A stretch of 18,997 bases of DNA from a virus. The position numbers were made by a program, and so were the translations under genes. The notes under the pieces are model-generated. The model was not told the DNA's origin. It ran no database searches and saw only the letters and a program-made list of their open reading frames with translations. Positions 4,034-18,972 of the stretch are shown in pieces (within the stretch, counting starts at the first letter, position 1; each line of letters starts with the position of its first letter). The stretch lies in the UHGV virus genome UHGV-0102822; one strand, written 5' to 3'.

Positions 4034-4424
4034 TTTACCGCGTTTAGGAATTAAACGCGCTTTTGAAGAAATCATTCAGAACGAACTTAAATTAAAATAT
4101 GTTCAAGATGCTTTCACGACAGGCGTTAAAAAAGAGATTCAAGTAATGATTCCAGAAATGACGGAAGAATACACAAGAATCCAAATGCAATCAAAACTCG
4201 GTTGCACATTGAATATGACCATCGACATTTTCTCGGAAATCAATGAAACGGGAGTTCATAAAGCTGTATACGATTTAATTTCTATTACTGCTATTCATCC
4301 GAAACTTCGTGAATTCAAAATTAATAAAATTTATCCAAGTTCAAGTTTCACCTCTTACAATAACGAGTCCTCAAATGGTCAAGTTTCTGCTCAAGTCGTG
4401 TTAACTCTTGAATACTTAATGTGA
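4026..4424 (+). CDS. hypothetical virion protein, neck/tail-joining candidate by position
   Basis: ATG 4026 overlaps the upstream stop (ATGAATAA), with GGAAGGA about 10 nt upstream. The track's 3996 start is a TTG without an SD. No recognisable motif. Confidence 0.5.
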   Translation: MNNLPRLGIKRAFEEIIQNELKLKYVQDAFTTGVKKEIQVMIPEMTEEYTRIQMQSKLGCTLNMTIDIFSEINETGVHKAVYDLISITAIHPKLREFKINKIYPSSSFTSYNNESSNGQVSAQVVLTLEYLM

Positions 4425-4431
4425 GGACACT

Positions 4432-5460
4432 ATGACAAATGATATTTTTGTGGCTAATCTCGTCCGTGTTTCTGTAAATGAAGAAGCAACGTCGGAGATT
4501 CCTAGCTACTTTGACCCAGGATATATTGAAACTGAAAATGTTGCTGCTTTTCCGGTAATAGGATTTTCAAATCAAGTTCAATCACTCGAAGATTATCGAG
4601 AAGATTTTGAAGTTAAATTATCAGGTGATCAAACAATTGATAACACTGTTTTAAGCATATTTGAATCTGATGATGAAGTTTCCGAATTGTTAGACAATGC
4701 GTTAATGAATAAGAAAAAACTTCGATTTAGAAATCTTTATGTTGTCGATTCAGAACATACAAGAGAAAGACAATCCGGTCTTTATCATATCTTTGATGCT
4801 TATGTTACGAAGAAAGAAACAAACGGGTCTGAGAGTTCCGCTGTAATTAACAACTATACTTTAAGTCCAGACGGTAAATTATTTTCAGGTTACGCTGAGT
4901 ATTCAACTCCGTTAAACGTTGGCGATTATGGTGTTGGTGCAGGAACAGAAGAAATCGAAGGTGTAAAAGATTTAGGTCTTTTGACTGGTAACAGATGGAT
5001 AACTGTTGATGGGGTTAACACTGATAATCCATATAACTCTGGCACGTCTGCTATGGCAATTCAGCATCCAAGTGGTCAAGGATGGGAACTGATTGGAGCA
5101 AGTATCGGTAATCCTAGCATACGTATTCGTAACAAGCAGATGAATCCCGACGGGACAATCAATGAATCGAATTGGGTTAAGGTCTATACAGAACTTGAAC
5201 GTCCTACAACAGAAGACATTGGAGCGCTTCCTATTACGGGAGGAACGTTACAAGGTTCACTGACGATTCAGGATTATTTGACTGTACGCAAAAAGATAAA
5301 CGCCCCGCTTGTTGAAATCGACAATCTAAATACTAAAGAAATTCAATCTGATTCGGTGAAAGTCAAAGGTCAAGAAGTTTATTCTCCTACGAATAAACCA
5401 ACTCCTGTTGATGTTAACGCAGTAGCTCAAGGTGAAACGTTAGACGCCGGAACATTCTAA
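4432..5460 (+). CDS. putative tail structural protein carrying a tail-fiber-type GGT-x-x-G-x-L motif in its C-terminal part
   Basis: 342 aa, with GTGAGGA SD before ATG 4432. The C-terminal region contains DIGALPITGGTLQGSLTIQDY, the motif class seen in phage tail fibers and also present in the 951-aa fiber downstream (SKAGDTMTGDLTV). Confidence 0.45.
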   Translation: MTNDIFVANLVRVSVNEEATSEIPSYFDPGYIETENVAAFPVIGFSNQVQSLEDYREDFEVKLSGDQTIDNTVLSIFESDDEVSELLDNALMNKKKLRFRNLYVVDSEHTRERQSGLYHIFDAYVTKKETNGSESSAVINNYTLSPDGKLFSGYAEYSTPLNVGDYGVGAGTEEIEGVKDLGLLTGNRWITVDGVNTDNPYNSGTSAMAIQHPSGQGWELIGASIGNPSIRIRNKQMNPDGTINESNWVKVYTELERPTTEDIGALPITGGTLQGSLTIQDYLTVRKKINAPLVEIDNLNTKEIQSDSVKVKGQEVYSPTNKPTPVDVNAVAQGETLDAGTF

Positions 5461-5473
5461 AAAATTTGATTAA

Positions 5474-5482
5474 TTAAATAAC
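5474..5482 (+). promoter_or_regulatory. TTAAATAAC, a weaker variant of the recurring TAAATAA motif upstream of the tail fiber gene
   Basis: Lies 31 nt upstream of ATG 5513 and is followed by the CAGGAGAA SD; one mismatch to the CTAAATAA core. Confidence 0.25.
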
Positions 5483-5512
5483 AAGGATGTTATTTTTCAA
5501 CAGGAGAATGAA

Positions 5513-8368
5513 ATGGCTAATAACAAAGTCAAACACTATAGGACTGATGTCGCAGGACGTAAACCTGATGCTTCAAAAATGCTTGAAGGTGAAATTGCTA
5601 TTAACATGACCGATAAAAGCATTTTCACGAAACGTGGAACTGAAATCGTTAATATCGGTAATGGTGCTGATTCTGTCGTCGAAGGTGGACAGACTTTTAT
5701 CGGTGACGTTCAAGCAAATAAATTAAAATCTGACACTGATATTTCTCTGAAAAATTCCGAGAAAAGTTCTATCGTTTTTGAAGATGAACACGGTAAAGCA
5801 AAAGTCGAATTGAAATCTGAAAAGCAAACTGATTCCGAAGGCTCTTTGAAAGTTGTTGTTTCGAACGGTAAAAACGCTTCAACAGGTTATTCAACTTATG
5901 ATTTCGTTAATGGTCGTTTACGTTTACCAGTTGCACCAATTGAAGCTGATAACGCAACGCGTAAAGACTATGTTGATTCAGAGATTAAGAAAGTCTCCGA
6001 CGCAACAGGAACGAATCTGACAGCTTTAGAGAATAAAGTTAACGCTAACGACACGAAACAGACCGAAGCGAACACCGAGCTGGACAATCGTCTTAACGCT
6101 AAGATTGATTTAAACAATACGACTATTAACACGAAAGTTGACGCTAACAAAGCCGACGCAGATTCAAAGATTAAAGCTGTTAATGATCGTTTGACTGTTG
6201 ATAATCAGACTTTGACCGACATGATTAATACCAAGGTTTCAAAAGCTGGTGACACAATGACTGGCGACTTGACTGTTCCTAAATTGAATGCCGACGGTAT
6301 CAAAGCAAATTATATTAACTTGGGTCCTAATCCTAATAGTTTAGGTGCTAACAGTATTATGATGGGAGATTCCGATACAGGATTTAAATGGAGAGAAGAC
6401 GGTTGGTTAGACACTTATTCCAATAATGTTGTTGTATCAAGTGTTGCAGGATCTCAAAACTTTTTTAATCGTCAAGTTACGATTAGATATAGAAGCGATG
6501 GTGCAGGAAACGTTAACGGTCTGGCACCTGCTGGCACATCTTTGCTTAAAATCGATACAACGACCGATGGAAACGGAATCGGAGACGGATACACTTATTT
6601 CGGATTATCAAATGCCGGTAAATATCATAACTATCTGAGAGGAACCGGTGCAACGTTCATCGATTCTCATGACGGTGTGAGAATAAGTGGTCAGACTCAT
6701 ACTCTTGCGGGAGTTGTGACTTCTGGTAAATCAGTAGGAACTTATGATACTTATTCCATGGTCAACTGGACTCAAGACACACAAGCTTTCAACCGTCTGA
6801 GACATTTCAGAGCGTGTGGTGCGTCGACCTGGTGGCATGAACTTGTATGGGCACATCATGATAATCCAAAATATTCGGATTCATTAACTTGGTGGCAGGG
6901 TATCGGGGCTGATAACTGGATTGCATCATTGCACCAAAGCGGTAATTATAAGACAAACCGATTCGAAGCACACGGCAGAAGTGCCGCTTATAAGCTTTTC
7001 AGTGCGACAAGTGAAGCTGCTTATATTTCTGGTAACAACGATGGAAAAGAAAACTCATGGCTGTTAGGTAAAACAGATGCCGGAACAAACATCATGTTTC
7101 AGAATAATATGGTTACGGGTCAAAGTTCCGCCGTAGTTCTGAGACAGAACCATGTGCAGCTTAACGCTAATGGTTATAATACCCTGACAGTTCTTGATAA
7201 CAGAATTGAAATCGACGGTTCAAGATGGGCAGCAACAAACAGTCACGCTTGGTCAGATCAGTGGAATCAATTGCCTCCTGTTCTGCTTAATTTCGGAACA
7301 TCTTCAGGTGCAAGTGATTATTATCCTGGATTTGCATTGCAGCAAACGACTTCCCAGGCGGGATATCATACTCGTTTTGAAATGGGAATAATTCGAGCCG
7401 GTGCACAGTACGGAAAAGGTGTAATACGTGTTTCTGAACCGAACCATGCTGCGATGGCCGGAAAAAATCAGTCCATTTATGAATTTGATATAAACGGAAG
7501 ATTCGCATCACCGAATATTGTTGATACTCCTAAAGTTGAAACCCGACAGATAACAAGTTTCGGTGTTAATACTCTTAACGTGCTAGGCGGAAACTCAATT
7601 GCGTTTGGTGATGGTGACACCGGTATTCGTCAAAGAACTGATGGAAACTTAGAAATTCTGGCAAATAGCGTTCATGTTGCAACATTCGACCACGCGGGAA
7701 TTAATTCATTAACCACTATGCGCGTTTCTTCTCCAAACGATTCTCGTGGCGTATATGTTCATAATATCAGAACAGGCAGCGCAAACGCATTAATTGCTGG
7801 TCAAGTTGATGGCTGGGCTGATTGGGGAGCATGGCGTGAACGTCCTGCTGGAATGATCGTAGAAGCGGGTTCAACTGATAAATGCATTAACATTTGGAAA
7901 TCTGTTCAGTGGGGAACCGAATGGTCTGCTGGAATGGACATTTATAATCCAGCAGGCGGCGCTTATGAAGCCATGCTTCATGTTAGAGGTGCAAACTTTA
8001 CATTTAGAAGCGTTGATGGTGCTGCCCATGCTGTTTCTTGGGTTTCAACTTCCGATAAACGTCTGAAATCAAATCTTGAAAAAATCGAAAACGCAGTTGA
8101 TAAGGTTAATACGTTAACTGGTTACGTTTACGATAAGAAATCAGATTTGAAAGAAACTGAATATTCGTTCGTAACTCGCGAAGCAGGTATTATTGCTCAA
8201 GAACTGAAAGAAGTATTACCAGAAGCTGTTAGTTCTTTCGGCGAAGATGAAATTCTTGGTGTTAACTCTGCTGCTGTAAACGCGTTGCTTGTTAATGCTA
8301 TCAAGGAATTAAGTGCTGATTTGAAAGAAACAAAAGCGCGTCTTGATGCTTTAGAACTTGCTAAATAA
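5513..8368 (+). CDS. tail fiber protein with C-terminal intramolecular chaperone / autoproteolysis domain (peptidase S74-like)
   Basis: 951 aa. The shaft region has P2 gpH / T-even-fiber-like motifs (KAGDTMTGDL; MMGDSDTGFKWREDGW and AFGDGDTGIRQRTDGN repeats). The C-terminal ~105 aa (SDKRLKSNLEKIENAVDKVNTLTGYVYDKK...GIIAQELKEVLPEAV...ALLVNAIKEL...LKETKARLDALE) match the signature of the self-cleaving chaperone domain known from endosialidase and T5 pb1-type fibers. Confidence 0.8.
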   Translation: MANNKVKHYRTDVAGRKPDASKMLEGEIAINMTDKSIFTKRGTEIVNIGNGADSVVEGGQTFIGDVQANKLKSDTDISLKNSEKSSIVFEDEHGKAKVELKSEKQTDSEGSLKVVVSNGKNASTGYSTYDFVNGRLRLPVAPIEADNATRKDYVDSEIKKVSDATGTNLTALENKVNANDTKQTEANTELDNRLNAKIDLNNTTINTKVDANKADADSKIKAVNDRLTVDNQTLTDMINTKVSKAGDTMTGDLTVPKLNADGIKANYINLGPNPNSLGANSIMMGDSDTGFKWREDGWLDTYSNNVVVSSVAGSQNFFNRQVTIRYRSDGAGNVNGLAPAGTSLLKIDTTTDGNGIGDGYTYFGLSNAGKYHNYLRGTGATFIDSHDGVRISGQTHTLAGVVTSGKSVGTYDTYSMVNWTQDTQAFNRLRHFRACGASTWWHELVWAHHDNPKYSDSLTWWQGIGADNWIASLHQSGNYKTNRFEAHGRSAAYKLFSATSEAAYISGNNDGKENSWLLGKTDAGTNIMFQNNMVTGQSSAVVLRQNHVQLNANGYNTLTVLDNRIEIDGSRWAATNSHAWSDQWNQLPPVLLNFGTSSGASDYYPGFALQQTTSQAGYHTRFEMGIIRAGAQYGKGVIRVSEPNHAAMAGKNQSIYEFDINGRFASPNIVDTPKVETRQITSFGVNTLNVLGGNSIAFGDGDTGIRQRTDGNLEILANSVHVATFDHAGINSLTTMRVSSPNDSRGVYVHNIRTGSANALIAGQVDGWADWGAWRERPAGMIVEAGSTDKCINIWKSVQWGTEWSAGMDIYNPAGGAYEAMLHVRGANFTFRSVDGAAHAVSWVSTSDKRLKSNLEKIENAVDKVNTLTGYVYDKKSDLKETEYSFVTREAGIIAQELKEVLPEAVSSFGEDEILGVNSAAVNALLVNAIKELSADLKETKARLDALELAK

Positions 8369-8371
8369 TAA

Positions 8372-8391
8372 AAAGGGACGAAAGTCCCTTT
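8372..8391 (+). terminator. hairpin terminator after the tail fiber gene (A-tract / stem / T-tract, possibly bidirectional)
   Basis: AAAGGGAC-GAAA-GTCCCTTT with a GNRA loop. The T-run is short (TTT then C), so termination is probably partial. Confidence 0.5.
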
Positions 8392-8394
8392 CAT

Positions 8395-8405
8395 CTAAAT
8401 AATAA
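8395..8405 (+). promoter_or_regulatory. CTAAATAATAA motif (candidate late promoter) upstream of the 162-aa gene
   Basis: Second copy of an 11-bp direct repeat (first copy 8361-8371, overlapping the fiber stop) flanking the terminator hairpin. Followed by a 14-bp palindrome and the AAGGAT SD. Confidence 0.35.
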
Positions 8406-8433
8406 CGTTATTACTTAATAAAGGATATTTAAA

Positions 8434-8922
8434 ATGGCTGATAAAGCATATGATATTTTCGCTGGCTCTTACGTCAGTGTATTTTTCAACTCTGACGTAT
8501 TGAACAAAGATATCGACTCAGAGAAATTCGTAGAAGTTCCTGAAGTTGGCGCATTTCCTACGACTGGTATCGAACGTGAGGTAATCGTTGCTCCTAACTT
8601 TACTCACAAATACAGCCGTAAACTGGTTGGTCGTGGTTCTGTTCCTGATATCGATTTGACTGTTAACTATATTCCTGGGTCTATTCATGATCAGCTTTAT
8701 AAGCTTGCGGAAGATGGTAAACGTGGTCAGTTCAAAATCGTTTATTGGATGGATGCTTCTAAAGAAATCGGTGTTGCAAAAATGTATAACGGTTTCCTGT
8801 CAAGCGCTACTTATTCCGGTGGTGAATCAGAAGTTGCTGCACAGGCTATGACTCTGAGTGTTGATGGTGGTCCAATTGCCGAAGCTTTGGTTGATTTGAC
8901 TGCTCCAACTCCAGAAGGCTAA
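8434..8922 (+). CDS. putative tail tube or minor tail protein
   Basis: 162 aa, acidic, with a pattern loosely reminiscent of tail-tube-fold proteins (DIDLTVNYIPGS...KRGQFKIVYW...GGESEV). Flanked by a terminator on each side, suggesting an abundantly expressed structural gene. Assignment is weak. Confidence 0.35.
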   Translation: MADKAYDIFAGSYVSVFFNSDVLNKDIDSEKFVEVPEVGAFPTTGIEREVIVAPNFTHKYSRKLVGRGSVPDIDLTVNYIPGSIHDQLYKLAEDGKRGQFKIVYWMDASKEIGVAKMYNGFLSSATYSGGESEVAAQAMTLSVDGGPIAEALVDLTAPTPEG

Positions 8923-8943
8923 TCGTTTTATTGTTCAATCTTA

Positions 8944-8969
8944 AAAGACTCCTAACGGGGTCTTTTTTT
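8944..8969 (+). terminator. rho-independent terminator after the 162-aa gene
   Basis: AAAGACTCC-TAAC-GGGGTCTTT, a 9-bp stem with one G-U pair, followed by a run of seven T (three of them in the stem). Confidence 0.7.
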
Positions 8970-8973
8970 GGCT

Positions 8974-8983
8974 CTAAATAAAG
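8974..8983 (+). promoter_or_regulatory. CTAAATAAAG motif (candidate late promoter) upstream of the gpK-like gene
   Basis: Exact CTAAATAAAG immediately after the terminator, then AGAGG SD and ATG 9002. Confidence 0.4.
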
Positions 8984-9001
8984 TCAGAGGTGAATCTTAA
9001 A

Positions 9002-9418
9002 ATGTTTAAATTTCAAGCTGACTTATCAAAATTATTAAATCGTTATATCAACAAAGAACACAAATACGGTCAAAACGACTGTAATATCCTTGTCGCTGAA
9101 TATATCGATATGACTTGCGGAACAGATTACGCAAGCAAACTTATTTCCAAATATGACTCTGTTCAATCGGGTTTAAAACACTGCAAAGAACTTACAGGTT
9201 TTAATAACGTTTTAGAAGCTTGTGAAAAGCATTTCGAAAAATCAAACATTATCGAAACAGGGTCAATTGTCTTAATTAAAAAAACATACAGACGCCGAGT
9301 TTATTACGTTGCGTCGATTGTCTTTAACGACAAAGCAATTATTGAACACAACAACAAATACGCTTTGATAAACGTAAAAGATTTTGAATACGAATTAATT
9401 TTTAACAGGAGAAAATAA
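9002..9418 (+). CDS. NlpC/P60-type tail assembly protein (lambda gpK C-terminal domain-like)
   Basis: 138 aa from ATG 9002; the track's GTG 8990 overlaps the SD. Cys-His-His spacing typical of NlpC/P60 (QNDCNILVAEY ... IIEHNNKYALI). Sits directly upstream of the gpJ-like gene, as gpK does in lambda. Confidence 0.55.
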   Translation: MFKFQADLSKLLNRYINKEHKYGQNDCNILVAEYIDMTCGTDYASKLISKYDSVQSGLKHCKELTGFNNVLEACEKHFEKSNIIETGSIVLIKKTYRRRVYYVASIVFNDKAIIEHNNKYALINVKDFEYELIFNRRK

Positions 9419-12400: not shown

Positions 12401-13098
12401 ATGATAGAGTTTATTTACAAAGCGCGATGATTCGCAATGCTTCGATCGGTAATGCTCAAATTGCTAATGCTGCAATTGATAATGCCAAAATTGCTAATGC
12501 TGCAATTAATAACGCGCAGATTCAAGACGGTGCTATTACAACAGCGAAAATTGGTAATGCTCAAATCGGTTCAGCACAAATTGCCTGGGAAATATCCTCT
12601 GATAACTGGGTTCCTTCCGGTGGTACTCAAGGATGGACAATTAGAAAAGATGGTTGGGCTTCATTCCAAAACGTTACAGTTAAAGGAAATATTCAAGCTG
12701 ATTCTGGTTATTTCTCAGGAGAAATCAGAGGTGGTTCTGGTTATTTCACAGGGACTGTTTACGCTGACAGAATCGAAGGTGACGTTATCAAAATGGGATT
12801 TGTCGATCCGTGGGGATCTGTTCATATTCCTGCTGTTGGTTGGAGAAGAATGATTGCTATTCCTAACGTTGCAATCGCCGGAAGAACTTATTCTGGTGGT
12901 ACTGGTTGGGGTGGTGGCAAAGCGTGGTTAAGACTCTCAAACGGCCAAGAAGTTGTTTACGTTCAATCTCAATCTCTAAACGGTTCAAACGGTGGTGTCG
13001 CATACATCGAAGCGGGACAAGCTGTTGATTTAACTTATACGGTCGAATTAAACCGAGCAGAAGCCTCAAGGGCAGTTTATTTTATCAGTAAAGTTTGA
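9418..13098 (+). CDS. central tail fiber / tip attachment protein (lambda gpJ-like) with a fused hydrophobic Gly/Ala-rich N-terminus
   Basis: 1226 aa. After a ~45-aa hydrophobic stretch comes a gpJ-type N-terminal domain (VLPIIYGEQRTGTINVWDAVGN...LVQIFAIAEGEVDSF), then fibronectin-III-like repeats (APTNLKVSSVSETALGRTFKVSWN...), a coiled region, a 5-residue-period repeat tract and a C-terminal domain. The start ATG overlaps the gpK-like stop (TAATG). Confidence 0.75.
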   Translation: MAIVAIGAIIAGASAGLAAYAAGMALAISIGIGVAVAAVSALMSTAMQPTVPRFNTSDTATTLGTTSDPSTVLPIIYGEQRTGTINVWDAVGNDTTYLVQIFAIAEGEVDSFKNLYIDNKRILNDAVYRDGIVSRGSIVSQYQDYVQVEFSVGKEQGHHFKLAEQYLGNDPSGWPVSATGNGVASCCIVMQKRNSDLQNQADILQPNSQVAVDVRGRLITDLNTGQIVPSRNGASQIVDYLTNERYGLGVSLDKINLDSFKAAANYALSNQLFSDGATDPNATFKENLTQLAGAFNGMIFESFGQVYCKIDGPDVVSFDFDEENISAGSVSLNSGGSEEYYNTLNVKYQDPAIDYSEQVLRYPSDVTTDKTIQYDKRIIAKDVNYRFVKSKDQLDKLASIERNKSLLKQIISFSSPDSYTIQVWDVIRVNFDELNLQDSLWRVTNVSRSMNKGVAGIVNITATEYIEEVYTDLDYAKDPNNNGSNVPNKGYLIAPTNLKVSSVSETALGRTFKVSWNSEQDFNRSGFYIQYAVAGTNQWTQAGFTSGNSYLIMNMDPLQKYDIRVCASGVFYTSEWVYSMNVNPDVVYNLPKVRGLRLVNSEFNNNVTQQTQFEFAWDNQSSEKFEVDGVQQTFEQVFQYYEIKITGQRPVVYRTKDLSFIYDLRMNQQNGISREIKFEITAVGYSGLRSEPTELIVRNNQAPAIIGFTASNGPGLLMCSWNDPMSVAPDYSGTVIQVSNNPEFTDINQVQLSSSQFIENFPLVDGEYYVRAAWYDVFGQDQLVWTESVYINMKWDIPWTEDMKDQLNDLLDLDQRVDGAIEDALELANAYTDTQITSTKQEVTTEIDQKISTSNTTLHTQITNETQGAINQAITIQTADFDGKLNSAITEVEKTQADDRAATASQISQLKAETTDMVATVSTEAKASVDDLAGTVNSKWAVSTNADGVVAGISMLASKDAAGNKASSIIFNADKIAITNNNTAPNAVPPFMVADDRVYLQSAMIRNASIGNAQIANAAIDNAKIANAAINNAQIQDGAITTAKIGNAQIGSAQIAWEISSDNWVPSGGTQGWTIRKDGWASFQNVTVKGNIQADSGYFSGEIRGGSGYFTGTVYADRIEGDVIKMGFVDPWGSVHIPAVGWRRMIAIPNVAIAGRTYSGGTGWGGGKAWLRLSNGQEVVYVQSQSLNGSNGGVAYIEAGQAVDLTYTVELNRAEASRAVYFISKV
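12430..12585 (+). repeat. tandem 15-bp / 5-residue periodic repeat tract inside the gpJ-like gene
   Basis: About nine consecutive pentapeptide units: IGNAQ IANAA IDNAK IANAA INNAQ IQDGA ITTAK IGNAQ IGSAQ. The underlying DNA repeats AATGCTCAAATTGCT / AATGCTGCAATTGAT. Confidence 0.7.
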
Positions 13099-13122
13099 TT
13101 TCTTTCCCCCAAATCCGTTTTT

Positions 13123-13132
13123 CTAAATAAGA
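13123..13132 (+). promoter_or_regulatory. CTAAATAAGA motif (candidate late promoter) upstream of the small-gene cluster
   Basis: Lies 28 nt upstream of ATG 13160; AAAGGAGAAAG SD in between. Confidence 0.35.
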
Positions 13133-13159
13133 CATGGAGGTCTTAAAAGGAGAAAGAAA

Positions 13160-13456
13160 ATGGGTGTTGAAGCCATCATTTCTTTCGCGGGACTGCTATG
13201 CGCTGGCTTTGGATGGATTTGGTCTCAAAAGAACGCAATGGAAGCCGACGCTTTAAAAATCGAACAGAGACTATCTGAAATCGAGAAAAGCGTTGCTCTT
13301 AATAGTGCGACCGATTCAAACGCAAATACTGAATTAACCAACGTTCGTGATTCGTTTAAGGAGTTTAAAGGTGATATGAAAAGTATAGACAATCGAATTA
13401 GAGAAATCGAAATTCGATTAGCGGTGATAGACAGTGAAACGAAAAGAAATAAATAA
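13160..13456 (+). CDS. small membrane-anchored coiled-coil protein (N-terminal TM helix plus helical domain)
   Basis: 98 aa. N-terminal hydrophobic segment AIISFAGLLCAGFGWIW, followed by heptad-like charged helical sequence (ALKIEQRLSEIEKS ... IDNRIREIEIRLAVID). The architecture resembles an i-spanin or other signal-anchored periplasmic protein, but function is unassigned. Confidence 0.5.
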   Translation: MGVEAIISFAGLLCAGFGWIWSQKNAMEADALKIEQRLSEIEKSVALNSATDSNANTELTNVRDSFKEFKGDMKSIDNRIREIEIRLAVIDSETKRNK

Positions 13457-13889
13457 TTACAAGAAAACCCTTTTTGATAAACAAAATAAAAGATGTGCTT
13501 TAACTGGGATAGAAATTACCGATGTTAATAAAGCCCATTTAGACCATGACCACGCTCTTGATGGTTCTCAAGCTGGACGATGCCGAGGATTATTACTCGC
13601 ACAGGCAAACGTCCTTGAGGGCAGATTAAAACATCAATTCATGTATTCAGGTTTAGCGAAGCACATCGAATATATTGATTTTTTAAAAAGATTGGTAACT
13701 TATCTCGAAAAAGATAATTCTAAAAATCCTATTCATCCTCAACTTGTAACAGACCTATCAAAGCGCTTTTCGAAAATGACGTTAAAGCAAATGAAAGAGA
13801 CTTTATTAGCAGAGGACATAAATCCAGTTGGTGATAAAAAATCTCTCATTAACTTGTACAAACAAAATTTAAAGGTGAAGTATGATTGA
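13434..13889 (+). CDS. recombination endonuclease VII homolog (T4 gp49-like, His-Me/HNH-type junction resolvase)
   Basis: 151 aa from GTG 13434, overlapping the upstream ORF by 23 nt. Clear similarity to T4 endonuclease VII as I recall it: HLDHDH, AG-x-x-RGLL, N...LEG..KH.F, SGL, and LVTYLEKDNSKNPIHPQLV versus T4 LLTYLKSDYTQNNIHPNFV. Confidence 0.8.
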   Translation: MKRKEINNYKKTLFDKQNKRCALTGIEITDVNKAHLDHDHALDGSQAGRCRGLLLAQANVLEGRLKHQFMYSGLAKHIEYIDFLKRLVTYLEKDNSKNPIHPQLVTDLSKRFSKMTLKQMKETLLAEDINPVGDKKSLINLYKQNLKVKYD

Positions 13890-14094
13890 AAAAATGAAAG
13901 CTGCATTCAAGAAACTTCCAGCAATGACAGGGGACTTTAAAAAGAAATTCATTTACGCGATGATTGCAATGGCTGTTTATAATTACATCGTTGTTCCGTG
14001 TGCATTGAGTTTCTTCGGAATAGTTCTTCCTATCGTTCCTCTTGATGAAGCTATGAAATATATCTTTGCAATTGTTTCATTTGGGAGTATGTAA
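13882..14094 (+). CDS. small hydrophobic membrane protein (holin-like size, possible dual start)
   Basis: 70 aa. N-terminus MIEKMK has two in-frame ATGs (13882 and 13894) separated by a Lys-containing tripeptide. A ~30-residue hydrophobic core (FIYAMIAMAVYNYIVVPCALSFFGIVLPIV) and a short hydrophobic C-terminus. Start overlaps the endo VII stop; AAAGGTGA SD. Confidence 0.45.
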   Translation: MIEKMKAAFKKLPAMTGDFKKKFIYAMIAMAVYNYIVVPCALSFFGIVLPIVPLDEAMKYIFAIVSFGSM

Positions 14095-14633
14095 TGGCGA
14101 AACTTGGTGGAGTTAAAAAAGACTTAGACAAATGGCGAATAAAAGAATCTGATCAGTTCTCTAAAAGAGTAACTAAAGCGTCTAAACTCGCTTCTGTTGA
14201 GTTACAACGAAAGATTAATCGACGTGTTGAAGGACCTGTGAATTTCACCAAGAACGCCGTTGGGTTCAGATTTAAGATTGATAAAGAAGGAACAACTAAC
14301 AGAATCTTTATCAAAGACGTTCAGGCGAATTATCTTTCACACTTGATAGATGATAACAGTCCGATTAACAAATATGTTCCAACAGGGGTAAGAGGTTCGA
14401 CTAACCAGTTCGGTAACATTCCAGGATTAAAAACTCGTAGAAACCTAGAGGCAGTCAAACAAAAGAAAGATGGTATTAACAGAACGATTCTGATTAAGAC
14501 AAATGTTAAAAAACAGAACAAAAGAGTTATTGCTATTTTCAAACGTCATCAAACTCGTAAGAAATCTATTGGTTCTTGGACTGATATTGGTAATGACATC
14601 ATAAAAACGGTTCGTCGTGTTGCTACTAAATAA
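14094..14633 (+). CDS. hypothetical highly basic protein
   Basis: 179 aa, Lys/Arg-rich throughout. ATG overlaps the upstream stop (TAATG); GGGAG SD. No recognisable catalytic motif. Confidence 0.5.
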   Translation: MAKLGGVKKDLDKWRIKESDQFSKRVTKASKLASVELQRKINRRVEGPVNFTKNAVGFRFKIDKEGTTNRIFIKDVQANYLSHLIDDNSPINKYVPTGVRGSTNQFGNIPGLKTRRNLEAVKQKKDGINRTILIKTNVKKQNKRVIAIFKRHQTRKKSIGSWTDIGNDIIKTVRRVATK

Positions 14634-14636
14634 AAG
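14626..14636 (+). promoter_or_regulatory. CTAAATAAAAG motif (candidate late promoter) plus AAAAGGAGA Shine-Dalgarno
   Basis: Part of CTAAATAAAAGAAAAGGAGACAAAATG, 24/27 identical to the cassette at 3707-3733. Overlaps the stop codon of the preceding gene. Confidence 0.45.
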
Positions 14637-14649
14637 AAAAGGAGACAAA

Positions 14650-14970
14650 ATGAACTTAAATGATTTTGAAACATATCGTGTTGACGAACTCGATTCTATT
14701 TTTATCAAAGAGCACAATCCAGAGTCGATGACTATTCCTTATAGCTTTGAACTGGTGAAAGAAACTCGTATAAAAAGGAATCTTCAAAACGACCAAAACG
14801 TTTTTATTGTTAGCACTCAGAAAAAGAAACCTCGTTATCATTTCAAGAATAATGAAATCGTAGAAATCAATGGTCCTTTCTTTGAACAAAATGCTGTTTG
14901 TATTTTTCAGCAAGAATATATTCATAAAGGATTCAGAATGATTGGATATTTCTTCCAATTCATCGAGTAA
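14650..14970 (+). CDS. hypothetical protein
   Basis: 106 aa from ATG 14650; the track's 14617 start is a GTG inside the promoter/SD cassette. Followed by a strong terminator. Confidence 0.5.
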   Translation: MNLNDFETYRVDELDSIFIKEHNPESMTIPYSFELVKETRIKRNLQNDQNVFIVSTQKKKPRYHFKNNEIVEINGPFFEQNAVCIFQQEYIHKGFRMIGYFFQFIE

Positions 14971-14973
14971 TCA

Positions 14974-15005
14974 AAAGGAGTTATCTTCGTGATAGCTCCT
15001 TTTTC
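14974..15005 (+). terminator. rho-independent terminator
   Basis: AAAGGAGTTATC-TTCGT-GATAGCTCCTTT, a 12-bp stem with one G-U pair, followed by a T-run. Confidence 0.65.
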
Positions 15006-15007
15006 GG

Positions 15008-15018
15008 CATAAATAAAG
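15008..15018 (+). promoter_or_regulatory. CATAAATAAAG motif (candidate late promoter) upstream of the chaperone / tape measure operon
   Basis: Variant of the recurring motif, immediately after the terminator and 31 nt before ATG 15050. Confidence 0.35.
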
Positions 15019-15049
15019 TAAACATTTAAATTAACTATAGGATTAAGAA

Positions 15050-15346
15050 ATGAAATTCGAAGAAATGATCGCCGCTCTCGGAGCAAAACGAGAAGTTGTA
15101 GAAATCAAAGGTTTTAAATTTTATGTTCGCGCAATGACCGTTGAAGAATTTGGTAAATTCTTTTTTATGGAAGACCAGACCGATAATATGATTCTGAAAT
15201 GCATTGAGAACGAAGACGGATCCCCTGTTTTTGAAAATATCGAACAAGTCAAACAACTTTATACCACCGTTCGCGCTCAACTTTCTGCTGCTGTTTCTGC
15301 TGCTTCTGTTATGAAAGAAGAAACTCACGCTGTGGAAAAGAATTAA
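15050..15346 (+). CDS. tail assembly chaperone (lambda gpG-like) by position and frame relationship
   Basis: 98-aa acidic ORF directly upstream of the tape measure gene. The downstream ORF is open in the -1 frame across its 3' end (from 15235). Confidence 0.5.
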   Translation: MKFEEMIAALGAKREVVEIKGFKFYVRAMTVEEFGKFFFMEDQTDNMILKCIENEDGSPVFENIEQVKQLYTTVRAQLSAAVSAASVMKEETHAVEKN

Positions 15347-15381
15347 GGCAGAATCCTTATAAAATATTCAAATTCAGAACC

Positions 15382-15729
15382 ATGTTGCGTAGAGGTTTTA
15401 CCGAACGTGAAATTCTGGATATGAGTATTAAGGATTTCTATGAACTGTGGATATATGAAACTTTCATTGAACCTCAAGGTCCTGCTGTAAATGACTTACA
15501 TCAAGCGCATATAGCATTTTCTGTTTTTGCTAATAATCCAAATATTACAAAAGAAGGTTCGAAGAAATTAAAACTGAAAGATTTCATGTTCATCAAGGAT
15601 AAAGTTTTTAAATCTCCTGAAGAACTGGAAGAAGAACAGAAAAAAGCCGCAGAAGCCAACAGAAAGAAAATGGAATCTATGTTCGACCCGAAACTTCTTG
15701 CGAAAGCAAAAGCTAAAAATAGGAAATAA
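15382..15729 (+). CDS. tail assembly chaperone extension (gpT-like part), probably expressed as a G-T fusion by -1 frameshifting
   Basis: The reading frame is open from 15235, in the -1 frame relative to 15050-15346. There is no Shine-Dalgarno before ATG 15382. The product has a basic C-terminus and the gene ends 2 nt before the tape measure start. Coordinates are as given in the ORF track; the true product probably starts at 15050 and shifts frame near 15334-15340. Confidence 0.4.
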   Translation: MLRRGFTEREILDMSIKDFYELWIYETFIEPQGPAVNDLHQAHIAFSVFANNPNITKEGSKKLKLKDFMFIKDKVFKSPEELEEEQKKAAEANRKKMESMFDPKLLAKAKAKNRK

Positions 15730-15731
15730 TA

Positions 15732-18077
15732 ATGGCGAATTCTCGTTATGATGTTGAGATTCGCGGAGATAATAAAGGACTGTCTACTGCTGTAAAAGAC
15801 TCTATGGACGAACTGAATAAACTTGATTCAGCCGCTCAGGGTCTTTTTAGTAATTTCACAGGTCCACTAAATGGTCTCAGCGATGGTCTCAGCACGATTC
15901 AAAGTATGTCCCCTGCGTTACGCGCATTGGGTGCAGCGGGGTTAGTTGCAGGTGCTGGTTTTGCTGCAATTAATAAAGCTGCTGAAACTGTTAACGTATT
16001 AAATCAGGTTAACACAACAACTGGCGTTTCTATTGAAATGCTTCAACAGTTGCAATCAACGTTCAAAGCTACCGGAATGGACGTTGAGAAATTCGGTGAT
16101 TTAAACAAAGACGCAATGGATAAACTCGGTGATTCTTTGAGAGCTGGCGGTGGTGGTATTGCCGACGACTTAGAAGAATGGGGTTTAAAACTTGAAGATT
16201 ATGCAAAATATGCTGGTGATGCCGAAGGTGGTATTAAAGCATTAATCGACACGTTCTATCAATTAAGAGCCGCTGGTAAATCATCTGCTGAAATTACTAA
16301 CGCAATGGAATCAATGGCGTCTGATGGTTCTCATTTGATTTCAACATTACAGAATTTTTCTAATACCCAAGACGCATTAAACGCAATTCAAGGTCAAACA
16401 GTTTCAATTACTCAAGACGTTGCCGACGAATTCAAAGAATATGAAAGAAACATGAATTCTTTGAAGAAAGCAACTAATGAATTCACGGTCGAAGCTGCTA
16501 GTCCATTAGTTCGTGAATTTAACAATCTTTATGAGTGGATGGATGGTATTGATTGGAGTGAAACGTCTTTTGCGAAATGGCTAAGAGAGAATAACAAAAA
16601 GGGTATAACTCCTTCTGGTATGTCCTCTGGTCAAGTGCAGAATATCGGAAAGTCTGTTGAAGCAATCGAAATTGAAAAGCGTCAGGCGTTTATTGCAGAA
16701 AATGCCAAGTTGCTTAAAAAACAAGTTAATCAGCTAGTTCGTTTAGCTGAACAAGAAACGATGGCAAATAAGGCTCGCCAGAAAGTCTTAGAAGAAAAAG
16801 CGAAGAAAGAAAAAGACGCTGCTGATAAAGCTGAACGTGAAAGAAAATCTGCTGCTGATAAAGCCGAAAGGGAACGTAAAGCTGCAATGGCTAAAGCCAA
16901 AGCTGATTATGACAAAATGATGGCTGATCGTGCTCAGGCAGTTGAATCTCTGAAACAGTTAGACGTTGCGGTTATTGCTCAAGAAGGACGTTCATATGCT
17001 TCTCAGATTAATCAGACTCAGCAAGCACTAACAAAGCTTCAAGAACTAAGAGACAAAGGGATAATCTCACAGGAGCAATTCCTAGAACGTCGTAATTCTC
17101 TATTGATTAACTCGTCAAAAGAATTCTCCGACAGTCTTAAGGCTAATCCTGCTGACATTGGCATTATCACTCAGTCGATGAATCAAATGTTCGATATTCA
17201 AAAGCAAGAACTGGATATTAAACGTCAACAGAACTTGATTTCAGAACAGCAATACAACGAACAGTTAGAGAATCTCCAAATTGCACATCAAGAGAAGATG
17301 AAAGCAATTAAAGAGATTGATGCTAATCAGGTGAATATGCAGAACTTGAATTCAATTGGTTTCGCAACTGATGAAGAAAGAATGGCATTAGAGCAAGAAG
17401 CATTAAATCAACAGTTCGAAAGGTTCAGAGAACAGAATCAGAAAATGTACGAATCTGGACTTTTGTCGCATGAACAATTTTTAGAGCAAAAAAGACGACT
17501 AGACAAGGCTTATTCTGTTCAGTCTGAAAATATTGCTATGATGGAAATTCAAACGAAAATGGGAATGTATAACGGTTTTGCTCAAGGCATGGCTGGTGTT
17601 ATTTCCGGTATTTCGGGTGAAAACTCTAAAGCCGCTCAAGCTGCGTTTGCAGTAGCTAAAGGAACAGCTATCGCAAATGGTATGTTAAACGCATATCAAT
17701 CTGCAACTAAAGCAATGGCAACTTATCCTGGTCCTTTGGGATACGCATTAGCCGCATCAAGTTATGCGCAAGTTTTAGGACAAGTTATGTCCATGAAATC
17801 TGTGAATATGACTGGTATGGCTCACGATGGCATTTCTGAAATTCCAAGAGAAGGAACATGGCTGCTTGATGGTGGTGAAAGAGTCGTTGATCAGAGAACT
17901 AACGGAGATTTGAAAGACTTCTTGAATAATCAAAGCGAGTCTAAGACTCAGCCTATTGATGCTCGTGTAATCGTACAAGGAAACGTGACTGATCAGCGTT
18001 GGTTTGCTGAACAACTCAAGAAGCAAGAAAAGATTATCACATCAATTGTTCAATCAGGAAACAGACGCAAAATGTAA
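15732..18077 (+). CDS. tail tape measure protein
   Basis: 781 aa. Long predicted helical, charged coiled-coil central region with an internal tandem repeat (AADKAERERK x2), and a Gly/Ala-rich hydrophobic segment near the C-terminus (AQAAFAVAKGTAIANGMLNAYQSATKAMATYPGPLGYALAASSYAQVLG). Preceded by the chaperone pair. Confidence 0.8.
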   Translation: MANSRYDVEIRGDNKGLSTAVKDSMDELNKLDSAAQGLFSNFTGPLNGLSDGLSTIQSMSPALRALGAAGLVAGAGFAAINKAAETVNVLNQVNTTTGVSIEMLQQLQSTFKATGMDVEKFGDLNKDAMDKLGDSLRAGGGGIADDLEEWGLKLEDYAKYAGDAEGGIKALIDTFYQLRAAGKSSAEITNAMESMASDGSHLISTLQNFSNTQDALNAIQGQTVSITQDVADEFKEYERNMNSLKKATNEFTVEAASPLVREFNNLYEWMDGIDWSETSFAKWLRENNKKGITPSGMSSGQVQNIGKSVEAIEIEKRQAFIAENAKLLKKQVNQLVRLAEQETMANKARQKVLEEKAKKEKDAADKAERERKSAADKAERERKAAMAKAKADYDKMMADRAQAVESLKQLDVAVIAQEGRSYASQINQTQQALTKLQELRDKGIISQEQFLERRNSLLINSSKEFSDSLKANPADIGIITQSMNQMFDIQKQELDIKRQQNLISEQQYNEQLENLQIAHQEKMKAIKEIDANQVNMQNLNSIGFATDEERMALEQEALNQQFERFREQNQKMYESGLLSHEQFLEQKRRLDKAYSVQSENIAMMEIQTKMGMYNGFAQGMAGVISGISGENSKAAQAAFAVAKGTAIANGMLNAYQSATKAMATYPGPLGYALAASSYAQVLGQVMSMKSVNMTGMAHDGISEIPREGTWLLDGGERVVDQRTNGDLKDFLNNQSESKTQPIDARVIVQGNVTDQRWFAEQLKKQEKIITSIVQSGNRRKM
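16818..16883 (+). repeat. imperfect 33-bp tandem duplication inside the tape measure gene
   Basis: GCTGCTGATAAAGCTGAACGTGAAAGAAAATCT followed by GCTGCTGATAAAGCCGAAAGGGAACGTAAAGCT, encoding AADKAERERKS / AADKAERERKA. The Arg codons are swapped between synonymous forms. Confidence 0.7.
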
Positions 18078-18106
18078 ATAATCTTCAAGTTATTCACAGG
18101 CAATAC

Positions 18107-18142: not shown

Positions 18143-18147
18143 AAAAA

Positions 18148-18947: not shown

Positions 18948-18972
18948 GAAATGCTCCTTTCGTATATTCAAA

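What the first reader, a model, noticed from the sequence alone, without database searches (positions are those of the whole stretch)
4432..18077. Non-canonical tail gene order: fiber, gpK-like and gpJ-like genes lie upstream of the chaperone pair and tape measure
In lambda-like and most siphovirus modules the order is tube, G/GT chaperones, tape measure, then distal tail proteins, K, I, J and side fibers. Here the fibers, the gpK-like gene and the gpJ-like gene come first. They are followed by an accessory cluster, and only then by the chaperone pair and tape measure, which end against a convergent cassette. Either this lineage has a rearranged tail module or the tape measure block was displaced by recombination. 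No Dit/Tal (gpM/gpL-type) genes are visible after the tape measure in the window.
Basis: inference. Interest (0 to 1): 0.45.

Follow-up and report, generated by a model that had tools for sequence, protein, structure and literature searches.

The report
Scrambled tail-gene order in a prophage
This is the tail-gene region of a roughly 34-kb prophage of E. coli and Citrobacter whose lineage has moved the tape-measure block behind the tail-tip genes and put the two "missing" tail-tip genes at the far end of the prophage on the other strand; it is a real, inherited rearrangement of an otherwise very conserved gene order, not an assembly error.

Summary

The window is a prophage integrated in the 5' end of ybiT, next to ldtB. 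It ends about 90 nt before attR. The same order occurs in complete chromosomes and in more than 200 assemblies, so it is not an artefact.

The Dit and hub (gpM/gpL-type) genes do exist. They lie about 30 kb away, next to a large serine recombinase at the other prophage end, on the opposite strand.

The nearest phage record (DCP80) and about 45 sister prophage loci keep the canonical order: tube, G, T, tape measure, Dit, hub, K, J. The scrambled prophages form one clade with at least three arrangements of the same cassettes.

All displaced genes are under purifying selection. Each cassette starts with a hairpin terminator followed by a CTAAATAA/CATAAATA motif, which matches DCP80's TATAAATA sites in position. 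I infer that these are self-contained late transcription units, which would make reshuffling tolerable.

Verdict: a new variant of a known kind, of moderate interest.

The parts
50..1615 (+). Portal protein (lambda family)
   Evidence: phrog_21 at 6e-63 and Pfam Phage_portal_2 at 1e-59.
1669..3606 (+). Prohead protease fused to the major capsid protein (645 aa)
   Evidence: phrog_617 at 1e-80; Pfam Peptidase_S78 plus Phage_capsid. It is 62% identical to the DCP80 homologue.
3731..4424 (+). Two small conserved genes (c1 3731-4033, c2 4026-4424) of unknown role; possibly head-tail connector or completion proteins
   Evidence: Conserved in position in all relatives. No family hits.
4432..5460 (+).
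   Evidence: Residues 4-148 are 23% identical to the 162-aa tube protein, E = 2e-9. The C-terminal part gives weak PHROG tail-fibre hits.
5513..8368 (+). Long tail fibre (951 aa) with a gp37-like distal part and a C-terminal S74 intramolecular chaperone
   Evidence: phrog_1699 at 8e-103; Pfam Peptidase_S74 at 1e-13. The tube-to-TMP genes are identical between the window and L002, so nearly all of the 173 mismatches must lie in this gene, apart from short intergenic stretches and the cargo genes, which were not compared separately.
8434..8922 (+). Tail tube protein (162 aa)
   Evidence: phrog_158 major tail protein at 1e-12. The sister-family homologue gives a weak Pfam Phage_TTP_11 hit and lies directly upstream of G/T in every canonical relative. 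It is 56% identical to the DCP80 gene at 13211-13705.
8923..8989 (+). Junction 1 (tube|K): hairpin plus T-run, followed by CTAAATAA 27 nt before the K start
   Evidence: (repeat families D7 and D13). DCP80 has TATAAATA at the homologous place upstream of its DUF6950 gene.
9002..9418 (+). DUF6950 protein with an NlpC/P60 (C40) papain-like fold; gpK-like
9418..13098 (+). Tail tip / central fibre protein, gpJ and T5 pb3-like (1226 aa)
   Evidence: phrog_31 at 2.5e-68; Pfam Phage-tail_3, fn3, Phage_Tail_Tip. tblastn hits to T5 pb3/pb4 and to the J proteins of 9g and Seurat. PDB J-like gp24 at 1e-6.
13160..14970 (+). Post-J cluster: 98-aa coiled-coil protein (13160-13456), T4-type endonuclease VII (13434-13889), 70-aa protein (13882-14094), 179-aa 'minor tail' protein (14094-14633), 106/117-aa protein (14650-14970)
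   Evidence: phrog_423 at 4e-35 and Pfam Endonuclease_7; phrog_1924 at 2e-7. The same genes follow J in DCP80 and in canonical relatives.
14971..15049 (+). Junction 2 (Z|G): hairpin plus T-run, followed by CATAAATAA 40 nt before the G start
   Evidence: (D13).
15050..15346 (+). Tail assembly chaperone, G-like (98 aa)
   Evidence: phrog_344 at 2e-6; weak Pfam Phage_TAC_13 hit.
15334..15340 (+). Putative -1 slippery site G GAA AAG, three codons before the G stop
   Evidence: The -1 frame is open from 15235 to 15729. The same or a similar heptamer (GGAAAAG, AGAAAAG or AAAAAAG) ends G in L009, L010, S2a, S3 and L083. Frameshifting itself is inferred.
15382..15729 (+). T-like part of the chaperone (product of the -1 frame)
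   Evidence: phrog_337 at 1e-8; Pfam Phage_tail_T at 2e-4.
15732..18077 (+). Tape measure protein (781 aa)
   Evidence: phrog_13674 at 9e-62 over residues 7-780. It is 37-42% identical to the DCP80 gene at 14463-16877.
18107..18124 (+). Terminator-like hairpin after the tape measure gene
18148..18971 (-). Two convergent cargo genes (118 aa and 148/156 aa) between the tape measure gene and attR; function unknown
   Evidence: No significant hits in PHROGs, Pfam, PADLOC or NCBIfam; the only match is a sub-threshold NCBIfam GIVxVP domain hit on the 156-aa protein (E 4e-4, 20 bits against a cut-off of 35). Absent from the E. coli PSS-15 and MS115-1 prophages, where the tape measure gene is followed directly by attR and ldtB. 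attR maps about 90 nt beyond the window end.

Best explanation
The window is the right-hand 19 kb of a temperate siphovirus prophage of about 34 kb. It integrates by a large serine recombinase into the 5' end of ybiT, next to ldtB.

In its lineage the ancestral tail operon order was tube, G/GT, tape measure, Dit, hub (gpL-like), NlpC/P60 (gpK-like), J. That order has been broken into cassettes and rearranged. The K-J-EndoVII-Y-Z unit now follows the tube gene. The G-T-tape-measure unit comes last, against attR. The Dit-hub pair lies beside the recombinase at attL on the opposite strand, sharing a 46-bp divergent control region with the lysozyme gene.

Shown: the arrangement is real and inherited by a whole clade, the clade has at least three variants (S1, S2, S3), and all displaced genes evolve under purifying selection.

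Inferred: the arrangement is tolerated because every cassette is a self-contained late transcription unit. Each begins with a hairpin terminator and then a (C/A)TAAATA(A) motif 23-56 nt before the start codon. This motif is the counterpart of the T4-type late promoter TATAAATA found at the homologous positions in phage DCP80. Tail assembly depends on protein-protein recognition, not on gene order.

More speculative: recombination between these repeated terminator-promoter cassettes, as proposed for PeSL elements of T4-type phages, produced the block exchange and the inversions.
For: 1. Gene identities.

2. Prophage context and integration site. Host genes ldtB, ybiR, mntR, ompX and dps lie to the right. 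The empty K-12 site maps the crossover to GTGA inside ybiT codons 7-8, and attR lies 60 nt after the tape measure stop in MS115-1.

3. Location of Dit and hub. In MS115-1 they are at 4224-4787(-) and 3577-4224(-), beside the recombinase. They match DCP80 16902-17462 (38%) and 17477-18118 (46%), directly after its tape measure gene. The window-type prophage has the same left end: L098 overlaps L011 at 99.5% identity.

4. Canonical order in DCP80, in the E. coli sister family and in about 45 of 60 loci.

5. Three scrambled layouts, S1, S2 and S3, form one clade in the tree of the hub protein.

6. dN/dS is 0.08-0.29 for G, T, tape measure, Dit, hub, K and J.

7. The same prophage, more than 98% identical, occurs in E. 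coli and in a second genus whose flanking DNA is about 79% identical to E. coli. An S3 contig spans attP.

8. Motif statistics. CTAAATAA occurs 7 times on the + strand and 0 times on the - strand, against 1.3 expected. TAAATA occurs 8 times in 732 intergenic nt against 7 times in 17,415 coding nt, p = 3e-8, at a fixed distance from start codons and after hairpins. Variants occur at the same places in S1, S2, S3 and canonical relatives, including two inverted copies between Dit and the lysozyme gene.

9. DCP80 has TATAAATA 11 times on the + strand and 0 times on the - strand, upstream of the tube, G, DUF6950 and capsid genes.

10. The junction cassettes resemble one another (repeat families D7, D12, D13).
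Against: - No promoter activity has been measured.
- The exact T4 motif TATAAATA is absent from the window.
- No gp55- or gp33-like factor was recognised among 10 early-region proteins.
- AT-rich intergenic DNA and TAA stop codons inflate the TAAATA counts; 3 of the 7 CTAAATAA sites overlap stop codons.
- Breakpoints that keep all genes intact must be intergenic anyway, so their coincidence with the cassettes is weak evidence for cassette-mediated recombination.
- Virion production by these prophages has not been shown. MS115-1 has an IS3-family insertion in its terminase gene, and no replication module is recognisable.
Confidence: 0.65

Rival explanations
1. Assembly artefact or chimeric contig: the junctions near 13100-15050 and 18080-18150 are misjoins.
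For: None found.
Against: The identical tape measure is indexed in 213 blocks of the assembly collection, and the places shown keep the same neighbours, among them the 5.37-Mb record CP101082.1 and 1.08-1.12-Mb contigs. Complete E. coli chromosomes (PSS-15, MS115-1 and others) have the same order at 76-86% nucleotide identity. Independent IMG/VR contigs agree.
Confidence: 0.01
2. The order is scrambled because the element is a decaying, defective prophage remnant, so the arrangement has no functional meaning.
For: No recognisable replication module or CI/Cro-type switch was found in the roughly 34-kb element. The MS115-1 copy has an IS3-family element in its terminase gene. No virions have been documented.
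Against: All structural ORFs are intact in many genomes. dN/dS is 0.08-0.29 for every tail gene, including the displaced ones. Copies more than 98% identical occur in two genera at the orthologous site, which implies recent horizontal transfer. An attP-spanning contig exists for the S3 variant. The G/T frameshift signal is conserved.
Confidence: 0.1
3. The G-T-tape-measure block was imported from an unrelated phage and simply landed at the prophage end (mosaic acquisition rather than an internal rearrangement).
For: This block is much more diverged between close relatives than the rest. Window against PSS-15: portal 99%, capsid 97%, J 88%, but G 64% and tape measure 58%. DNA matches to MS115-1-type prophages stop at 14512. 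So alleles of the cassette are exchanged within the clade.
Against: G, T and the tape measure protein are homologous to those of DCP80 and of the canonical sister clades at divergence similar to the other tail genes. No second, vestigial chaperone/tape-measure set lies after the tube gene. Dit and hub moved as well, which an import does not explain.
Confidence: 0.1
4. The order is the ordinary norm of a known phage family (for example T5-like or 9g/Seurat-like), so nothing is rearranged.
For: J is distantly similar to T5 pb3/pb4 and to the J proteins of 9g and Seurat.
Against: Megablast finds no close phage record. Every sister lineage sampled, and DCP80, has tube-G-T-TMP-Dit-hub-K-J. Only one clade departs from it.
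Confidence: 0.03

Closest known systems
Lambda-type siphovirus tail module (V, G/GT, H, M, L, K, I, J)
   Same: All functional classes are present: tube, a G/T chaperone pair with a -1 slippery heptamer, tape measure, Dit-like protein, hub, NlpC/P60 K-like protein and J-like tip protein. The lambda order was read from NC_001416.
   Different: The order is tube, K, J..., G, T, tape measure. Dit and hub are about 30 kb away on the other strand. No gpI homologue was seen. Profile comparison with lambda K, L and M was not significant, so the relationship rests on fold and position.
Escherichia phage DCP80 (PQ671644), bases 1-25,000, and the E. coli sister prophage family (loci L014-L016)
   Same: The structural genes are homologous: capsid 62%, tube 56%, J 46%, tape measure 37-42%. 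Fibres lie before the tube gene, EndoVII and the Y/Z genes lie after J, and a serine recombinase is present in the temperate relatives.
   Different: They keep the canonical order tube-G-T-TMP-Dit-hub-K-J. DCP80 uses the exact TATAAATA motif. The rest of the DCP80 record has inverted duplicates of T4-like genes and may be misassembled.
PeSL promoter-stem-loop cassettes that mediate modular shuffling in T4-type phages (PMC2839356, PMC4122927)
   Same: Short composite hairpin-plus-promoter-like cassettes are repeated at module boundaries, and modules have moved or inverted between close relatives.
   Different: PeSLs are described with early promoters in hyperplastic regions of large myoviruses. 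Here the motif resembles a late promoter and the shuffled modules are core tail genes of a small temperate siphovirus. Recombination at the cassettes has not been demonstrated.
RcGTA / T5 tail-tip architecture (Dit, DUF2163 hub, peptidase, large tip protein)
   Same: The Dit-like protein gives a weak hit to the T5 pb9 B-domain. The hub carries Pfam PF09931 (DUF2163). Then come an NlpC/P60 protein and a J-like protein. The correspondence to the RcGTA gene set is from my own knowledge.
   Different: In the window's clade the genes are split over three places. The hub profile matches the T5 pb3 N-terminus only at E = 0.28.
P2-like myovirus late region (baseplate and fibre genes ahead of sheath, tube, chaperones and tape measure)
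   Same: Tip or baseplate genes precede the chaperone/tape-measure genes (own knowledge; not tested here).
   Different: P2 is a contractile-tail phage with a sheath and unrelated baseplate genes. Here the tube gene is separated from its chaperones, and no sheath gene is present.

Membership tests
Lambda-like siphovirus tail module | Tube protein, tape measure and a J-like tip protein are present | tested here: met
   phrog_158 at 1e-12, phrog_13674 at 9e-62, phrog_31 at 2.5e-68; Pfam Phage-tail_3 and Phage_Tail_Tip.
Lambda-like siphovirus tail module | Chaperone pair expressed through a -1 frameshift just upstream of the tape measure gene | tested here: met
   G (15050-15346) and T (15382-15729) lie directly before the tape measure gene. 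The -1 frame is open from 15235 to 15729. The heptamer G GAA AAG sits three codons before the G stop and is conserved in relatives. Frameshifting itself has not been measured.
Lambda-like siphovirus tail module | Gene order tube, G/GT, tape measure, Dit/M, L, K, (I), J | tested here: not met
   The window has tube, K, J..., G, T, tape measure. Dit and hub are at the other prophage end on the opposite strand.
Lambda-like siphovirus tail module | Dit and hub proteins are encoded by the phage | tested here: met
   A 186-187-aa protein with weak or faint precomputed Pfam hits to the T5 pb9 B-domain, and a 215-217-aa DUF2163 'baseplate hub' protein. Both match the genes that follow the tape measure gene in DCP80. 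They lie outside the window.
gpK-type NlpC/P60 (C40) tail protein | Papain-like NlpC/P60 fold with a conserved Cys and His | tested here: met
gpK-type NlpC/P60 (C40) tail protein | Sequence homology to lambda gpK, including its N-terminal MPN/JAB domain | tested here: not met
   hhalign probability 0.3%, E = 0.2; only the G-x-x-D-C motif aligns. The protein has 138 aa and a single domain.
PeSL-type modular shuffling | Repeated composite stem-loop plus promoter cassettes at module boundaries | tested here: met
   A hairpin plus T-run followed by a (C/A)TAAATA(A) motif lies before c1, tube, K, G and, with less clear hairpins, other units. The cassettes are similar to one another (D7, D12, D13).
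PeSL-type modular shuffling | Recombination between cassettes, or circular intermediates, produces the rearrangements | not testable with these tools
   The relatives are too diverged to map breakpoints to the base. This needs closely related pairs that differ in order, or experiments.
T4-type late transcription (gp55/gp33-dependent promoters) | TATAAATA at about -10 of late genes | tested here: inconclusive
   There are 0 exact matches in the window, but the variants CTAAATAA and CATAAATA are enriched and occupy the positions where the DCP80 module has TATAAATA.
T4-type late transcription (gp55/gp33-dependent promoters) | Phage-encoded gp55-like sigma factor and gp33-like co-activator | tested here: not met
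   No such hit among 10 early-region proteins in PHROGs or Pfam or for two candidates against PDB sequences. A few small ORFs were not scanned.
Prophage integrated by a large serine recombinase | Resolvase plus Recombinase domain protein at one end, with definable attL, attR and attB | tested here: met
   A 499-501-aa protein with PF00239 and PF07508. The K-12 empty site splits at GTGA within ybiT. attL lies about 60 nt before the recombinase start and attR 60 nt after the tape measure stop.

The most novel reading that the evidence does not exclude
The roughly 34-kb element carries a complete head-and-tail gene set whose cassettes are each driven by T4-late-promoter-like sites, yet it has no recognisable late sigma factor (gp55/gp33) and no replication module. 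The most novel reading not excluded is that its morphogenetic genes are switched on, and perhaps its DNA is replicated, by a superinfecting T4-like or DCP80-like phage. That would make it a 'reverse satellite' that borrows transcription and replication rather than structural proteins. In that case the promoter-per-cassette design that permits free shuffling of core tail genes would be a general property of this phage group.
Probability: 0.1. Interest if true: 0.75.

Novelty: new variant of a known kind. Interest (0 to 1): 0.42.

Why it matters
The order tube, chaperones, tape measure, Dit, tip genes is among the most conserved features of long-tailed phages and is routinely used to annotate genes that have no sequence similarity to anything.

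Here a widespread clade of enterobacterial prophages (E. coli, Citrobacter, probably also Klebsiella and Enterobacter) breaks that rule in at least three ways while keeping every gene under selection. Three consequences follow.

- The order is not mechanically required for tail assembly.
- Synteny-based annotation and prophage-boundary tools can miss Dit and hub genes, or call such prophages incomplete.
- The clade offers a natural system for testing whether promoter-terminator cassettes drive module shuffling outside T4-type myoviruses.

Tried and rejected
1. I suspected the element was the classical 34-kb retron-Ec67 element, because MS115-1 carries an Ec67-family reverse transcriptase. Rejected: that retron lies in a 186/P2-related prophage (PMC7826664, citing Dodd and Egan 1996).

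2. The exact T4 late promoter TATAAATA has 0 matches in the window. Only variants are present.

3. A search for gp55- or gp33-like factors among early-region proteins found nothing.

4. Profile comparisons of the DUF6950, hub and Dit-like alignments with lambda K, L and M were not significant. The K-like call therefore rests on the predicted fold.

5. I took a 33,969-bp Logan contig for an excised genome. Its end runs into ybiT, so it is an integrated copy.

6. Megablast against phage records found only a 188-bp match.

7. The genome-contig scan returned only 3 loci.

8. PADLOC, NCBIfam, Pfam and PHROGs gave no significant hit for the two convergent cargo genes.

9. A sigma-70 promoter scan found fewer sites than shuffled sequence, and terminator-like sites at about the shuffled level. 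It was of no use for defining transcription units.

10. No simple series of one or two inversions converts the canonical order into S1. At least one block exchange plus one inversion is needed, and S2 and S3 need further steps (my reasoning).

Full report
**1. What is in the window**

All long ORFs up to 18077 lie on the + strand. PHROG and Pfam scans give the following genes.

| Coordinates | Gene |
|---|---|
| 50-1615 | portal |
| 1669-3606 | prohead protease fused to the capsid protein |
| 3731-4424 | two small genes (c1, c2) |
| 4432-5460 | 342-aa fibre-like protein |
| 5513-8368 | 951-aa long fibre with a gp37-like distal part and an S74 chaperone |
| 8434-8922 | 162-aa tube protein |
| 9002-9418 | 138-aa DUF6950 protein |
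| 9418-13098 | 1226-aa J/pb3-like tip protein |
| 13160-13456 | 98-aa coiled-coil protein |
| 13434-13889 | T4-type endonuclease VII |
| 13882-14094 | 70-aa protein |
| 14094-14633 | 179-aa 'minor tail' protein |
| 14650-14970 | 106-aa protein |
| 15050-15346 | G-like chaperone |
| 15382-15729 | T-like ORF |
| 15732-18077 | 781-aa tape measure |

Two genes converge on the - strand at 18148-18971. The real break in synteny is therefore tube|K, not 'fibres first'.

**2. The chaperone pair and the gpK-like gene**

The G ORF ends in GTG GAA AAG AAT TAA. The -1 frame is open from 15235 through the T ORF to 15729, directly before the tape measure start codon. The same or a similar heptamer (GGAAAAG, AGAAAAG or AAAAAAG) closes the G gene in six relatives. 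That fits a lambda-like G/GT programmed frameshift, although frameshifting itself is inferred.

**3. The window is a prophage and the order is not an artefact**

The exact tape measure protein is indexed in 213 blocks of the public assembly collection. The seven places shown, the largest being the 5.37-Mb record CP101082.1, all have the same neighbours. Downstream lie ldtB, ybiR, mntR, mntS, opgE, ompX, rhtA, dps and glnH.

From the tube gene to the tape measure gene the window is identical to GCA_030203045.1. Nearly all differences must therefore lie in the long fibre gene, apart from short intergenic stretches and the cargo genes, which I did not compare separately.

Complete E. coli genomes carry prophages 76-86% identical in nucleotides, at the same site and with the same order.

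Comparison with the empty K-12 site places the crossover at GTGA inside codons 7-8 of ybiT. attL lies about 60 nt upstream of a gene for a 499-501-aa serine recombinase. attR lies 60 nt after the tape measure stop in MS115-1. In window coordinates attR falls at about 19087, so the window stops about 90 nt short of it. The 'convergent cassette' is strain-specific cargo inside the prophage end. It is absent from PSS-15 and MS115-1 and gives no significant family hit.

**4. Where the 'missing' Dit and gpL-type genes are**

In E. coli MS115-1 the element runs from ybiT to ldtB and is about 34 kb long. It begins: recombinase (+), a 246-aa gene (+), a 215-aa DUF2163 'baseplate hub' gene (-), a 187-aa gene (-), lysozyme (+).

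The 187-aa and 215-aa proteins match DCP80 at 16902-17462 (38%) and 17477-18118 (46%). Those are the two genes directly after the DCP80 tape measure gene. The sister-family homologue of the 187-aa protein carries a weak precomputed Pfam hit to the T5 pb9 (Dit) B-domain.

The window's own prophage type has the same left end. Contig L098 overlaps the upstream part of the window's genome (L011) at 99.5% identity. It reads ybiT, recombinase, a 58-aa gene, hub (opposite strand), Dit (opposite strand), lysozyme, YuaX, TIR, small terminase.

**5. Comparison with relatives**

No phage record is close in DNA. By protein the nearest is Escherichia phage DCP80. Its order is tube 13211, G 13777, T 14202, tape measure 14463, Dit-like 16902, hub 17462, DUF6950 18264 (unannotated), J 18679, EndoVII 22959, and the Y and Z homologues at 23593 and 24158.

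A hub-protein search found 92 clusters in E. coli, Citrobacter, Klebsiella, Enterobacter, Pantoea, Serratia, Rahnella and Salmonella. I fetched 60 loci around this gene and 18 around J, and mapped marker genes on them. About 45 loci are canonical, including an E. coli temperate sister family and the loci. Their order is fibres, tube, G, T, tape measure, Dit, hub, DUF6950, J..., recombinase(-).

The rest fall into three scrambled layouts, written here in the terminase orientation.

- **S1** (the window, PSS-15, MS115-1): rec+ (h+) hub- Dit- lys+ ... terL ... tube K J X EndoVII Y Z G T TMP.
- **S2**: rec+ lys- Dit+ hub+ ... terL ... Z G T TMP. This differs from S1 by an inversion of the hub-Dit-lys segment.
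- **S3**: tube K J EndoVII Y Z rec- | attP | hub- Dit- lys+ G T TMP.

In a neighbour-joining tree of the hub protein, S1, S2 and S3 form one clade and the canonical loci form the sister clade. DCP80 was set as the outgroup for that tree, so its position is not a result. The simplest reading is that the canonical order is ancestral. Converting it to S1 needs at least one block exchange plus one inversion, and the clade has kept rearranging the same four cassettes: [G T TMP], [Dit hub], [lys] and [rec/attP].

**6. Are the rearranged genes functional?**

Between the window and PSS-15, dN/dS is 0.09-0.29 for tube, K, J, Y, G, T and tape measure. For Dit and hub it is 0.08-0.17.

The same prophage, more than 98% identical, sits at the orthologous site in E. 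coli (flanks 98-99.5% identical to E. coli MS115-1) and in another genus (flanks about 79% identical). Identical hub proteins are named from both E. coli and Citrobacter. This implies recent horizontal movement.

For S3, one metagenomic contig (L028) has phage DNA on both sides of the recombinase-proximal junction, whereas L017 has host DNA on one side. L028 therefore spans attP.

These data argue for a working, mobile phage, but no virions have been shown. Some copies are damaged: MS115-1 has an IS3-family insertion in its terminase gene.

**7. Why a scrambled order may be tolerated (inference)**

Every unit in the window starts with a GC-rich hairpin plus T-run, followed by a short motif.

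- CTAAATAA occurs 7 times, all on the + strand and at gene boundaries, against 1.3 expected; 0 of 200 shuffles reach 7.
- TAAATA occurs 8 times in 732 intergenic nt against 7 times in 17,415 coding nt (Fisher p = 3e-8).
- The motif lies 23-56 nt before the start codons of the capsid, c1, fibre, tube, K, X98, Z and G genes.

Both junctions created by the rearrangement, tube|K (8923-8989) and Z|G (14971-15049), are such cassettes, and they resemble each other and the cassette before c1 (repeat families D7, D12, D13).

The same design recurs in S1, S2, S3 and canonical relatives with variants such as TATAAATA, TTAAATA and CATAAATA. The 46-bp region between the divergent Dit and lysozyme genes holds two inverted CATAAATA copies.

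In DCP80 the exact T4 late-promoter sequence TATAAATA occurs 11 times on the + strand and never on the - strand of the structural module, upstream of the tube, G, DUF6950 and capsid genes. The blocks that moved therefore correspond to whole late transcription units.

This resembles the promoter-stem-loop cassettes (PeSLs) proposed to mediate modular shuffling in T4-type phages (PMC2839356, PMC4122927). I have no direct evidence that recombination occurred at the cassettes.

Caveats:

- The exact TATAAATA is absent from the window.
- No gp55- or gp33-like protein was found among 10 early-region proteins.
- Three of the seven CTAAATAA sites overlap stop codons.

**8. Mosaicism**

The G-T-tape-measure cassette is far more diverged between close relatives than its surroundings. 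Window against PSS-15: portal 99%, capsid 97%, J 88%, Y 90%, but G 64%, T 77% and tape measure 58%. DNA matches to MS115-1-type prophages end at 14512. Alleles of this cassette are evidently exchanged within the clade. The cassette is still homologous to that of DCP80 and the sister clades, so a foreign origin is not supported.

**9. Verdict**

The finding is real and correctly interpreted. It is a lineage-specific variant of the lambda-like tail module, not a new kind of system. I found no description of it in the searchable literature, but that search was shallow.

**10. Leads that failed**

- The link to the retron-Ec67 34-kb element.
- A contig I first took for an excised genome.
- Lambda K, L and M profile comparisons.
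- The genome-contig scan, which gave only 3 loci.

The DCP80 record as a whole looks unreliable, because it has inverted duplicate sets of T4-like genes. I use only its first 25 kb, and the order there agrees with about 45 independent loci.

Noticed in passing
window 4432-5460 and 8434-8922: The N-terminal ~150 residues of the 342-aa 'fibre' are a paralogue of the 162-aa tube protein (23% identity, E = 2e-9). It may be a tube-fold collar or fibre-anchoring protein rather than a plain fibre.
   Followed up: partly
window 1669-3606: The prohead protease (Peptidase_S78) and the HK97-type capsid protein are fused in one 645-aa ORF. The fusion is conserved in all relatives and in DCP80.
   Followed up: no
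window 13434-13889: A T4 gp49-type endonuclease VII gene lies inside the tail gene cluster. Canonical relatives also carry UvsW and UvsY next to the tail module (L015, L016, L101-L103).
   Followed up: partly
window 12430-12583: Seven copies of a 15-nt (five-codon) repeat lie in the C-terminal part of the J-like gene (repeat finder family D1).
   Followed up: no
window 15732-18077 (residues 432-458): The tape measure protein contains a SHOCT domain match (Pfam E = 4e-10).
   Followed up: no
window 18148-18971 (- strand): A two-gene convergent cargo cassette lies between the tape measure gene and attR. It has no significant match in Pfam, PHROGs, PADLOC or NCBIfam and is absent from the E. coli PSS-15 and MS115-1 prophages.
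   Followed up: partly
L010 1061-1147 and 35041-35104; K-12 locus L095: The prophage integrates inside codons 7-8 of ybiT (core GTGA). The phage side supplies a look-alike N-terminus, so ybiT stays 530 aa long. The recombinase start codon is only about 60 nt from attL.
   Followed up: partly
L010 1100-16400; L011 1-9500; L098: The ~34-kb element has no recognisable replication module or CI/Cro-type switch. Its small terminase gene lies about 6 kb upstream of the large terminase gene, with opposite-strand genes between them. The space between holds variable cargo: a CAP12-PCTIR TIR protein, a YadA-like adhesin and, in MS115-1, a retron Ec67-family reverse transcriptase.
   Followed up: partly
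L100 (DCP80 32001-82000): The DCP80 record holds inverted duplicate sets of T4-like genes: two rIIA, two spackle, two exonuclease subunit 2 and two 15-kDa RNA-polymerase-binding protein genes. It is classified as Straboviridae although its first 25 kb is a siphovirus-type module. The assembly or the classification looks doubtful.
   Followed up: partly
L029, L080, L093: S3-type prophages are inserted in a ybjQ-like host gene, and in both orientations. The recombinase end abuts the 3' part of the gene in L093 but the inverted 5' part in L080.
   Followed up: no
L017 (JBEBQJ010000175.1): A contig binned as a Sphingobacterium yanglingense MAG carries an S3-type prophage end that closely matches a metagenomic S3 contig of this enterobacterial prophage clade (L028). 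This is probably a binning error.
   Followed up: no
L082, L083, L059, L060: One canonical lineage has the post-J genes (lysozyme, Z-like, Y, 70-aa) inverted as a block. Cassette inversions are therefore not confined to the scrambled clade.
   Followed up: no
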